A stretch of 64,000 nucleotides of DNA from the human T2T-CHM13v2.0 reference genome, Homo sapiens. Made by a program: the position numbers and the translations under genes. Positions within the stretch are counted from its first letter, which is position 1. Every line of letters starts with the position of its first letter. Shown in pieces: positions 38,688 to 42,515 of this stretch. Under the pieces are notes generated by a model that saw only the letters and a program-made list of their open reading frames with translations, was not told the DNA's origin and made no database searches. The stretch lies in assembly GCF_009914755.1 (NCBI RefSeq), contig NC_060927.1; one strand, written 5' to 3'.

Positions 38688-41600
38688 ATGACAGGATCAA
38701 ATTCACACATAACAATATTAACTTTAAATGTAAATGGACTAAATGCTCCAATTAAAAGACACAGACTGGCAAATTGGATAAAGAGTCAAGACCCATCAGT
38801 GTGCTGTATTCAGGAAACCCATCTCACGTGCAGAGACACACATAGGCTCAAAATAAAAGGATGGAGGAAGATCTACCAAGCCAATGGAAAACAAAAAAAG
38901 GCAGGGGTTGCAATCCTAGTCTCTGATAAAACAGACTTTAAACCAACAAAGATCAAAAGAGACAAAGAAGGCCATTACATAATGGTAAAGGGATCAATTC
39001 AACAAGAGGAGCTAACTATCCTAAATATTTATGCACCCAATACAGGAGCACCCAGATTCATAAAGCAAGTCCTGAGTGACCTACAAAGAGACTTAGACTC
39101 CCACACATTAATAATGGGAGACTTTAACACCCCACTGTCAACATTAGACAGATCAACGAGACAGAAAGTCAACAAGGATACCCAGGAATTGAACTCAGCT
39201 CTGCACCAAGCAGACCTAATAGACATCTACAGAACTCTCCACCCCAAATCAACAGAATATACATTTTTTTCAGCACCACACCACACCTATTCCAAAATTG
39301 ACCACATAGTTGGAAGTAAAGCTCTCCTCAGCAAATGTAAAAGAACAGAAATTATAACAAACTATCTCTCAGACCACAGTGCAATCAAACTAGAACTCAG
39401 GATTAAGAATCTCACTCAAAGCCGCTCAACTACATGGAAACTGAACAACCTGCTCCTGAATGACTACTGGGTACATAAGGAAATGAAGGCAGAAATAAAG
39501 ATATTCTTTGAAACCAACGAAAACAAAGACACAACATACCAGAATCTCTGGGACACATTCAAAGCAGTGTGTAGAGGGAAATTTATAGCACTAAATGCCC
39601 ACAAGAGAAAGCAGGAAAGATCCAAAATTGACACCCTAACATCACAATTAAAAGAACTAGAAAAGCAAGAGCAAACACATTCAAAAGCTAGCAGAAGGCA
39701 AGAAACAACTAAACTCAGAGCAGAACTGAAGGAAATAGAGACACAAAAAACCCTTCAAAAAATCAATGAATCCAGGAGCTGGTTTTTTGAAAGGATCAAC
39801 AAAATTGATAGACCGCTAGCAAGACTAATAAAGAAAAAAAGAGAGAAGAATCAAATAGACACAATAAAAAATGATAAAGGGGATATCACCACCGATCCCA
39901 CAGAAATACAAACTACCATCAGAGAATACTACAAACACCTCTACGCAAATAAACTAGAAAATCTAGAAGAAATGGATACATTCCTCGACACATACACTCT
40001 CCCAAGACTAAACCAGGAAGAAGTTGAATCTCTGAATAGACCAATAACAGGCTCTGAAATTGTGGCAATAATCAATAGTTTACCAACCAAAAAGAGTCCA
40101 GGACCAGATGGATTCACAGCCGAATTCTACCAGAGGTACAAGGAGGAACTGGTACCATTCCTTCTGAAACTATTCCAATCAATAGAAAAAGAGGGAATCC
40201 TCCCTAACTCATTTTATGAGGCCAGCATCATTCTGATACCAAAGCCGGGCAGAGACACAACCAAAAAAGAGAATTTTAGACCAATATCCTTGATGAACAT
40301 TGATGCAAAAATCCTCAATAAAATACTGGCAAACCGAATCCAGCAGCACATCAAAAAGCTTATCCACCATGATCAAGTGGGCTTCATCCCTGGGATGCAA
40401 GGCTGGTTCAATATACGCAAATCAATAAATGTAATCCAGCATATAAACAGAGCCAAAGACAAAAACCACATGATTATCTCAATAGATGCAGAAAAAGCCT
40501 TTGACAAAATTCAACAACCCTTCATGCTAAAAACTCTCAATAAATTAGGTATTGATGGGACGTATTTCAAAATAATAAGAGCTATCTATGACAAACCCAC
40601 AGCCAATATCATACTGAATGGGCAAAAACTGGAAGCATTCCCTTTGAAAACTGGCACAAGACAGGGATGCCCTCTCTTACCACTCCTATTCAACATAGTG
40701 TTGGAAGTTCTGGCCAGGGCAATCAGGCAGGAGAAGGAAATAAAGGGTATTCAATTAGGAAAAGAGGAAGTCAAATTGTCCCTGTTTGCAGACGACATGA
40801 TTGTTTATCTAGAAAACCCCATCGTCTCAGCCCAAAATCTCCTTAAGCTGATAAGCAACTTCAGCAAAGTCTCAGGATACAAAATCAATGTACAAAAATC
40901 ACAAGCATTCTTATACACCAACAACAGACAAACAGAGAGCCAAATCATGGGTGAACTCCCATTCACAATTGCTTCAAAGAGAATAAAATACCTAGGAATC
41001 CAGCTTACAAGGGATGTGAAGGACCTCTTCAAGGAGAACTACAAACCACTGCTCAAGGAAATAAAAGAGGACACAAACAAATGGAAGAACATTCCATGCT
41101 CATGGGTAGGAAGAATCAATATCGTGAAAATGGCCATACTGCCCAAGGTAATTTACAGATTCAATGCCATCCCCATCAAGCTACCAATGACTTTCTTCAC
41201 AGAATTGGAAAAAACTACTTTAAAGTTCATATGGTACCAAAAAAGAGCCCGCATTGCCAAGTCAATCCTAAGCCAAAAGAACAAAGCTGGAGGCATCACA
41301 CTACCTGACTTCAAACTATACTACAAAGCTACAGTAACCAAAACAGCATGGTACTGGTACCAAAACAGAGATATAGATCAATGGAACAGAACAGAGCCCT
41401 CAGAAATAATGCCGCATATCTACAACTATCTGATCTTCGACAAACCTGAGAAAAACAAGCAATGGGGAAAGGATTCCCTATTTAATAAATGGTGCTGGGA
41501 AAACTGGCTAGCCATATGTAGAAAGCTCAAACTGGATCCCTTCCTTACACCTTATACAAAAATCAATTCAAGATGGATTAAAGATTTAAACGTTAAACCT

Positions 41601-42515
41601 AAAACCAGAAAAACCCTAGAAGAAAACCTAGGCATTACCATTCAGGACATAGGCGTGGGCAAGGACTTCATGTCCAAAACACCAAAAGCAATGGCAACAA
41701 AAGACAAAATTGACAAATGGGATCTAATTAAACTAAAGAGCTTCTGCACAGCAAAAGAAACTACCATCAGAGTGAACAGGCAACCTACAACATGGGAGAA
41801 AATTTTCGCAACCTACTCATCTGACAAAGGGCTAATATCCAGAATCTACAATGAACTCAAACAAATTTACAAGAAAAAAACAAACAACCCCATCAAAAAG
41901 TGGGCGAAGGACATGAACAGACACTTCTCAAAAGAAGACATTTATGCAGCCAAAAAACACATGAAGAAATGCTCATCATCACTGGCCATCAGAGAAATGC
42001 AAATCAAAACCACTATGAGATATCATCTCACACCAGTTAGAATGGCAATCATTAAAAAGTCAGGAAACAACAGGTGCTGGAGAGGATGCGGAGAAATAGG
42101 AACACTTTTACACTGTTGGTGGGACTGTAAACTAGTTCATCCATTGTGGAAGTCAGTGTGGCGATTCCTCAGGGATCTAGAACTAGAAATACCATTTGAC
42201 CCAGCCATCCCATTACTGGGTATATACCCAGATGAGTATAAATCATGCTGCTATAAAGACACATGCACACGTATGTTTATTGCGGCACTATTCACAATAG
42301 CAAAGACTTGGAACCAACCCAAATGTCCAACAATGATAGACTGGATTAAGAAAATGTGGCACATATACACCATGGAATACTATGCAGCCATAAAAAATGA
42401 TGAGTTCATATCCTTTGTAGGGACATGGATGAAAATGGAAACCATCATTCTCAGTAAACTATCGCAAGAACAAAAAACCAAACACCGCATATTCTCACTC
42501 ATAGGTGGGAATTGA
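38688..42515 (+). CDS. L1 ORF2p (endonuclease / reverse transcriptase), uninterrupted 1275 aa, chimeric
   Basis: EN motifs (QETH, GDFN, SDH), PIP box [14 protein letters not shown] (D702) and C-terminal CX3CX7HX4C are all present; carries S664L in QGCPLSP. Expression and activity are not shown by sequence. Confidence 0.95.

What the first reader, a model, noticed from the sequence alone, without database searches (positions are those of the whole stretch)
39460..41660. Young L1 copy carries short patches of the host L1's non-consensus variants
Seen: the two ORF2 copies (offset ~5477 bp) differ at many sites, yet share alleles I recall as non-consensus for L1HS. These are G39479/G44956 (HKEM), A39521/A44998, C39706/C45183 and C39714/C45191 (ETTKLR rather than EITKIR), G41003/G46479, and G41608/G47083 (KTRKT rather than KTIKT). 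The first patch is bounded by differing sites at 39459 and 39728 (~270 bp, with one copy-1-only change at 39503); the last lies between differing sites only ~60 bp apart. Inference: this is either patchy mismatch repair of a long cDNA/host heteroduplex formed during integration, or later non-allelic gene conversion between the tandem copies. Either would be a natural record of host-to-invader sequence transfer.
Basis: partly seen in the sequence, partly recalled or inferred. Interest (0 to 1): 0.78.

Follow-up and report, generated by a model that had tools for sequence, protein, structure and literature searches.

The report
Old L1 patch inside young L1
A young human LINE-1 jumping gene sits inside an older LINE-1, fused to it in exact register, and carries a roughly 250-base stretch matching the older copy, likely copied from it while the insertion was being made, although later gene conversion between the two neighbours is almost as likely.

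Summary
Observation confirmed; interpretation partly. All six allele pairs are at the stated places. A young L1HS-Ta with a 1,580-bp chr6 3' transduction lies in an older full-length L1PA and is joined to it in register; the switch falls between 38773 and 38882, around an endonuclease-type site. None of 12 Ta copies has more than one of them, the four nearest relatives have none (permutation p<5e-6), and the C39706+C39714 22-mer occurs only in these two copies genome-wide. The transfer ran host to young. The single sites G41003 and G41608 are unproven (p 0.02 to 0.25 by choice of null), so 'patches' is one sure tract. The chr6 source site is empty in CHM13, so the three-way test could not be run. 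Timing is open: during integration about 0.52, later gene conversion about 0.38. Both processes are known; this is a clean natural example. Supplements list the GRCh38 element (my mapping) as a plain full-length L1HS, though its 5' 2.2 kb is old host.

The parts
36559..36574 (+). Left copy of the host L1's own 16-bp target-site duplication
   Evidence: identical to 48230-48245
36575..38854 (+). 5' part of the old host L1PA (5' UTR, ORF1 from 37608 with a premature stop at codon 49, first 55 codons of ORF2)
   Evidence: 22 rare alleles in 874 bp (37900-38773) against the older panel; old alleles at 38730, 38745, 38748, 38773 where 12 of 12 Ta copies differ
38774..38881 (+). In-register host-to-young junction zone; holds the endonuclease-type site (bottom strand TTTT/A, cut 38854/38855)
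   Evidence: last host allele 38773, first young allele 38882; no indel against Ta copies
38882..42741 (+). Young L1HS-Ta segment (rest of ORF2, 3' UTR with ACA at 42608-42610 and a 19-bp deletion after 42606, poly-A)
   Evidence: 14-21 differences from Ta copies over 2,791 bp against 99 from the host; deletion junction unique in the genome
38688..42515 (+). Open chimeric ORF2, 1,275 codons
39460..39727 (+). Host-derived tract in the young copy (minimum 39479-39714, 236 bp; maximum 268 bp); seven host alleles, one young-private change at 39503
   Evidence: 224-bp perfect match 39504-39727 / 44981-45204; double-allele 22-mer found twice in the genome
41003..41003 (+). Single shared allele G (host 46479), possible micro-patch within 40951-41035
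   Evidence: 0 of 26 Ta and 0 of 26 older copies; significance depends on the null
41608..41608 (+). Single shared allele G (host 47083), possible micro-patch within 41597-41654
   Evidence: 0 of 29 Ta copies; significance depends on the null
42738..44317 (+). 3' transduction from chr6 (G000:C6:143112453-143114032), ATTAAA at 44298-44303
   Evidence: 1,580 bp, 3 differences; no L1 at its start on chr6
44318..44331 (+). Second poly-A tail, running into the host's AAAA target
44332..48229 (+). 3' part of the old host L1PA (broken ORF2 with two 1-bp deletions and a stop, 3' UTR with GAG, poly-A); donor of the tract at 44937-45204
48230..48245 (+). Right copy of the host's target-site duplication

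Best explanation
A young L1HS-Ta copy with a chr6 transduction is fused in register into an older L1, and a 236-268-base tract inside it matches the older copy; the tract was likely copied from host DNA during the insertion itself, when the new cDNA would have paired with the matching host sequence beside the nick. Shown: the nested anatomy, the in-register junction, the tract, and its host-to-young direction. Inferred: ORF2p nicked at 38854/38855, copied poly-A, transduction and L1 RNA; the cDNA end moved in register onto the host strand for about 250 bases and returned to the RNA (or the same stretch of a cDNA/host heteroduplex was repaired toward the host); the cDNA was finally joined to the host's 5' part through the same homology.
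For: The 5' junction is in exact register within a 108-bp zone that contains the nick, so cDNA and host did pair at this locus (that it happened at integration is inferred from its position). cDNA leaving the RNA to copy nearby homologous DNA, typically under 250 bp, is reported for somatic L1s (22 cases; 10.1101/2024.08.27.596794, passage). A young-private change (A39503) sits inside the tract, so the tract is either early or discontinuous. The copies were 3.3% apart with no perfect stretch over 135 bp, and one later conversion tract has only a 2-26% chance over 5,000-80,000 generations at the published mean rate. If the two single sites are real, three later events would be needed (P about 5e-4 at 40,000 generations).
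Against: The tract begins about 600 bp from the nick, with 18 young-type informative sites in between, whereas the reported templated insertions copy DNA within 15 bp of the site. The tract length equals the mean human non-allelic conversion tract, 250 bp. A private change inside 268 bp has a 47% chance anyway if the tract is old, so it weighs little. The single sites are not significant under the stricter null. One host-to-young tract against no young-to-host tract does not show a direction bias. No rate is known for internal patches at integration.
Confidence: 0.52

Rival explanations
1. After the insertion, one non-allelic gene conversion between the tandem copies (5.5 kb apart) copied about 250 bp from host to young copy; the single sites are recurrent mutations or separate small events.
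For: Tract length fits the 250-bp mean; rate 2.5e-7 per base per generation was estimated for duplicates up to 5% apart (10.1101/135152, passages); rates are raised for copies under 10 kb apart (PMC6598467, passage); 43% of simulated tracts would cover 7 or more informative sites; intrachromosomal conversion inside a human L1 has been proposed before (PMC1920257, passage).
Against: Expected only 0.02-0.3 tracts in the time available; rate falls with divergence; A39503 requires the event to precede a further mutation or to be discontinuous.
Confidence: 0.38
2. The chr6 source L1 already carried these alleles (a recombinant or odd lineage) and the match to the host is coincidence.
For: The source is absent from CHM13 and could not be read; each allele alone exists elsewhere (99, 104 and 48 pattern matches); no sibling with the 19-bp deletion or G42231 exists to check. 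Plausible for the two single sites.
Against: The C39706+C39714 pattern occurs only in these two copies; the host tract's best non-self match among 40 scored of 1,327 candidates is the young copy; the four nearest Ta relatives have Ta alleles at all seven sites.
Confidence: 0.03
3. The tract is an assembly or polishing artefact in which host reads corrected the young copy.
For: No reads or second assembly could be examined.
Against: A39503 differs inside the tract and both ends are sharp; 122 differences persist elsewhere; a 6,165-bp L1HS with intact ORF2 is listed at the matching GRCh38 place and seen in 11 of 12 cell lines (this supports the structure, not the tract).
Confidence: 0.04
4. The two copies are an ordinary tandem duplication, or the transfer ran young to host.
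For: Direction cannot be read for the two single sites.
Against: The copies are different subfamilies separated by poly-A and a chr6 transduction. In the tract both copies have the old A39533, A39555 and C39600 where Ta has C, G and T (12, 12 and 11 of 12); rare-allele density there is 4 in 268 bp, like the host (42 in 1,563) and unlike the young copy (4 in 1,563).
Confidence: 0.03

Closest known systems
Chimeric L1s formed between L1 cDNA and an endogenous L1 in cultured cells (Gilbert et al. 2002, 2005; Symer et al. 2002; recalled, papers not held; Gilbert 2005 seen only as cited)
   Same: Homology-guided, in-register joining of new cDNA to an older L1 at the insertion site, giving a full-length-looking element.
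   Different: Natural germline insertion with a transduction; host 3' part retained downstream; an internal host tract 600 bp from the junction.
Templated insertions in somatic L1s (10.1101/2024.08.27.596794, passage)
   Same: Local genomic DNA of under about 250 bp copied into the new L1 by a proposed cDNA template switch.
   Different: There the templates are non-L1 and within 15 bp of the site and add sequence; here the template is homologous L1, 600 bp away, and replaces sequence in register.
Non-allelic gene conversion between duplicates and transposable elements (10.1101/135152; PMC6598467; PMC1920257; passages)
   Same: One-way transfer of about 250 bp between nearby copies under 5% apart.
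   Different: Not shown to postdate the insertion; pair made by retrotransposition rather than duplication.
Catalogued element chr3:120573021-120579186:+:L1HS:REF (GRCh38; PMC10879037 supplements)
   Same: Same strand, 6,165 bp, intact ORF2 only; inferred to be window 36575-42741 (mapping from length, ORF state and recalled NDUFB4 position).
   Different: Listed as a full-length L1HS; here its 5' UTR, ORF1 and start of ORF2 are old host sequence and ORF2 has a host tract.

Membership tests
L1HS-Ta insertion by target-primed reverse transcription with 3' transduction | ACA in the 3' UTR | tested here: met
   42608-42610; same motif in 29 of 29 panel copies; diagnostic stated in PMC10760644
L1HS-Ta insertion by target-primed reverse transcription with 3' transduction | Endonuclease-type site and poly-A at the 3' junction | tested here: met
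   TTTT/A at 38854/38855; poly-A 44318-44335 after ATTAAA
L1HS-Ta insertion by target-primed reverse transcription with 3' transduction | Unique flank of a source locus behind the L1 poly-A | tested here: met
   1,580 bp at 99.8% to chr6
L1HS-Ta insertion by target-primed reverse transcription with 3' transduction | Source L1 present in front of that flank | tested here: inconclusive
   Site empty in CHM13; the L1 3.6 kb upstream differs by 2.2% and is not the source; no non-reference L1HS there in a 12-cell-line table, file cut when stored
L1HS-Ta insertion by target-primed reverse transcription with 3' transduction | Short target-site duplication | tested here: inconclusive
   Hidden in the homology: at most 27 bp (38855-38881), possibly none
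Full-length L1HS (as catalogued) | L1HS-type 5' UTR and ORF1 | tested here: not met
   Old alleles up to 38773; 2.5% rare alleles in 37900-38773; ORF1 stop at codon 49
Chimeric L1 by homology-guided joining of cDNA to an endogenous L1 | Junction at homologous positions without indel | tested here: met
Chimeric L1 by homology-guided joining of cDNA to an endogenous L1 | Formed during integration rather than by later recombination | not testable with these tools
   Junction lies within 108 bp around the nick, which favours integration; needs haplotypes
Non-allelic gene conversion tract | Contiguous run of donor alleles, flanks unconverted | tested here: met
   7 of 7 informative sites, p<5e-6; one private change inside
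Non-allelic gene conversion tract | Non-reciprocal (donor unchanged) | tested here: met
   Host keeps old alleles at 45010, 45032, 45077; next-longest gap between differences is 117 bp
Non-allelic gene conversion tract | Arose after both copies existed | not testable with these tools
   One haplotype only

The most novel reading that the evidence does not exclude
All three patches and the in-register junction come from one integration event in which the L1 cDNA paired repeatedly, or over nearly 3 kb, with the host L1 beside the nick: a fossil showing that an inserting L1 can take up sequence from an old L1 at several internal places, a route by which old alleles enter an open ORF2.
Probability: 0.25. 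Interest if true: 0.62.

Novelty: new member of a known kind. Interest (0 to 1): 0.4.

Why it matters
It is an unusually readable natural case of sequence moving from an old L1 into a young one: donor, acceptor, direction and tract ends are all fixed by private alleles. Whether such exchange happens at integration or later is directly testable here with existing pangenome haplotypes. It also shows that an entry used as a full-length L1HS in methylation and expression tables (my mapping) has an old promoter and ORF1, which affects subfamily comparisons and L1 trees. No effect on a gene or on L1 activity is shown: ORF1 is broken, and the element is listed as methylated and not expressed in the two rows seen.

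Tried and rejected
Source element: chr6 site empty; neighbouring L1 (C6:143102783-143108806) rejected as source (2.2% from the young copy). Siblings: none with the chr6 flank, the 19-bp deletion or G42231; A42435 matched 7 other places, not fetched. G39074 as a fourth patch: rejected, 1 of 4 nearest relatives has it. A40141, T40652, A40682: segregate among Ta copies, not counted. C40052/T40053 as a young-to-host tract: rejected, the host-type 35-mer has 757 matches. Cluster of four private changes 41235-41528 as a third-party tract: p=0.14. Panels were best BLAST hits, so they lean to little-mutated copies; only 12 Ta copies cover the tract. Literature: no main-text mention of the coordinates tried; topic searches gave no description of this locus as chimeric. 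Gilbert 2005, Myers 2002 and Beck 2011 are not held. Supplements of PMC13192797 (which screens full-length L1s for recombinants, 35 removed) and PMC9311842 were too large to read; that of PMC12350158 was cut and one file of PMC8647825 was not searched; any of these may list the locus, its frequency or its source. PMC4866827 supplements had no row for the coordinates tried. Earlier findings were not available.

Full report
Anatomy. A self-comparison shows two L1 stretches, 38850-42741 and 44327-48235, 96% alike. An old full-length L1 runs from 36575 to 48229 between 16-bp target-site repeats; it is 3.5-4.3% from six other copies compared and has GAG in its 3' UTR; 'L1PA3/4' would be my recalled label. 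It is split at 38854/38855, a TTTT/A site on the bottom strand, and resumes at 44332. The insert is a young L1 3' part with ACA, a poly-A, 1,580 bp matching chr6:143112453-143114032 with 3 differences, and a second poly-A. On chr6 the flank starts at an empty site with no L1; an L1 3.6 kb upstream is 2.2% different and not the source. The first copy is old up to 38773 and young from 38882, with no indel, so ORF2 reads through for 1,275 codons; ORF1 has a stop at codon 49. A supplement lists chr3:120573021-120579186 in GRCh38 as a 6,165-bp reference L1HS with intact ORF2 in 11 of 12 cell lines (PMC10879037, supplement rows); I take it to be this element from its length, ORF state and the recalled position of NDUFB4.

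The observation. I projected 29 best matches to 39400-39800 (mostly older copies), 29 best matches to 41300-42700 (all ACA-type) and 12 short pieces of the latter covering the first tract (8, the 4 nearest relatives) onto the window. All six claimed pairs hold. The first tract has seven host alleles in a row: 39479, 39521, 39533, 39555, 39600, 39706, 39714. Of 12 Ta copies one carries C39600 and none carries any other. Of 122 informative sites 11 are host-type, 7 of them consecutive; 0 of 200,000 shuffles reached that run, and the same held with the nearest relatives alone (120 sites). The 22-mer with C39706 and C39714 occurs twice in 3.1 Gb, here and in the host. Direction is host to young: three of the seven are old-subfamily alleles where Ta differs, and the density of rare alleles in the tract (4 of 268 bp in the host) resembles the host's (42 of 1,563) and not the young copy's (4 of 1,563).

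G41003 and G41608 are absent from the panels (0 of 26, 0 of 29) but stand alone. Against host alleles carried by panel copies the excess is p=0.016-0.024 (2 of 81 against 5 of 2,155). The young copy, however, has four times the panel's private-allele load, and as a share of private alleles the excess vanishes (2 of 8 against 5 of 49, p=0.19-0.25); some of those five are ancestral states, so the truth lies between. Each allele has 48-104 exact pattern matches elsewhere, with no denominator. Other apparent shared sites (39074, 40141, 40652, 40682, 40052-3) are lineage or ancestral alleles and were dropped. No young-to-host tract is visible; the longest gap between differences outside the tract is 117 bp, and single-site events in that direction would be invisible.

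Mechanism. Shown: nested insertion, in-register junction, one host-derived tract. Inferred: its timing. At integration the new cDNA is complementary to the intact host strand next to the nick over 3.7 kb. The junction shows that pairing took place and its position around the nick suggests integration time. A cDNA end that leaves the RNA, copies about 250 bases of host and returns, or repair of that stretch of a heteroduplex toward the host, gives the tract; both predict host-to-young transfer only. Template switching onto nearby DNA is reported for 22 somatic L1s, mostly under 250 bp but within 15 bp of the site (10.1101/2024.08.27.596794, passage). The rival is later conversion: mean tract 250 bp, 2.5e-7 per base per generation, slowing with divergence (10.1101/135152, passages), raised within 10 kb (PMC6598467, passage). 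That gives 2-14% for at least one tract in 5,000-40,000 generations and 26% at 80,000; the age is only loosely bounded by 3 differences in the transduction. A39503 inside the tract leans weakly to an early or discontinuous event (47% by chance if early). I put integration at 0.52 and later conversion at 0.38.

Comparison with what is known. L1HS insertions inside older LINEs are common (80 of 203 in one genome; PMC7026601, passage). Homology-guided chimeras with endogenous L1s are known from cell culture (recalled; the primary papers are not held). Conversion inside a human L1 has been proposed (PMC1920257, passage), and a pangenome study removed 35 recombinant full-length L1s (PMC13192797, passages; supplements unreadable, and they may include this locus). 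Passages of PMC10760644, PMC9675761, 10.1101/594200 and 10.1101/2024.12.14.628481 added background only. Ten full-text searches found no account of this locus as chimeric; the library lacks most subscription papers.

Verdict. A real, well-resolved host-to-young transfer of one tract in a chimeric L1; the multi-patch claim and the timing are open. New member of a known kind; interest 0.40, rising to about 0.6 if haplotypes show that all patches date from the insertion.

Noticed in passing
window 36575-42741: The element catalogued as a full-length L1HS with intact ORF2 (GRCh38 chr3:120573021-120579186, my mapping) is a chimera with an old 5' UTR and broken ORF1.
   Followed up: yes
window 42606/42607: 19-bp deletion in the young 3' UTR just before the ACA, between GA repeats; the junction is unique in the genome.
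   Followed up: partly
G000:C6:143112452 (L008 about 7953): Empty site of the inferred source L1; absent from CHM13 and not in the part of a 12-cell-line table that could be searched, so the source is rare or lost. A full-length older L1 lies 3.6 kb upstream on the same strand.
   Followed up: partly
window 35654-35808 and 49040-49194: A 155-bp direct repeat (93.5%) flanks the whole L1 locus and two Alus; the left copy overlaps the RefSeq cis-regulatory region 35677-35897. Origin not determined.
   Followed up: partly
window 2036-6564 and 11425-12552: Much older L1 fragments on the minus strand, 71-76% alike to the young copy.
   Followed up: no
window 39479-39714: The tract and the private change alter ORF2 residues 264, 272, 290, 340 and 343 against solved chains, in the region between the endonuclease and reverse transcriptase domains (domain label recalled); effect unknown.
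   Followed up: no
window 41235-41528: Four of nine young-private substitutions lie within 294 bp; not significant (p=0.14).
   Followed up: yes
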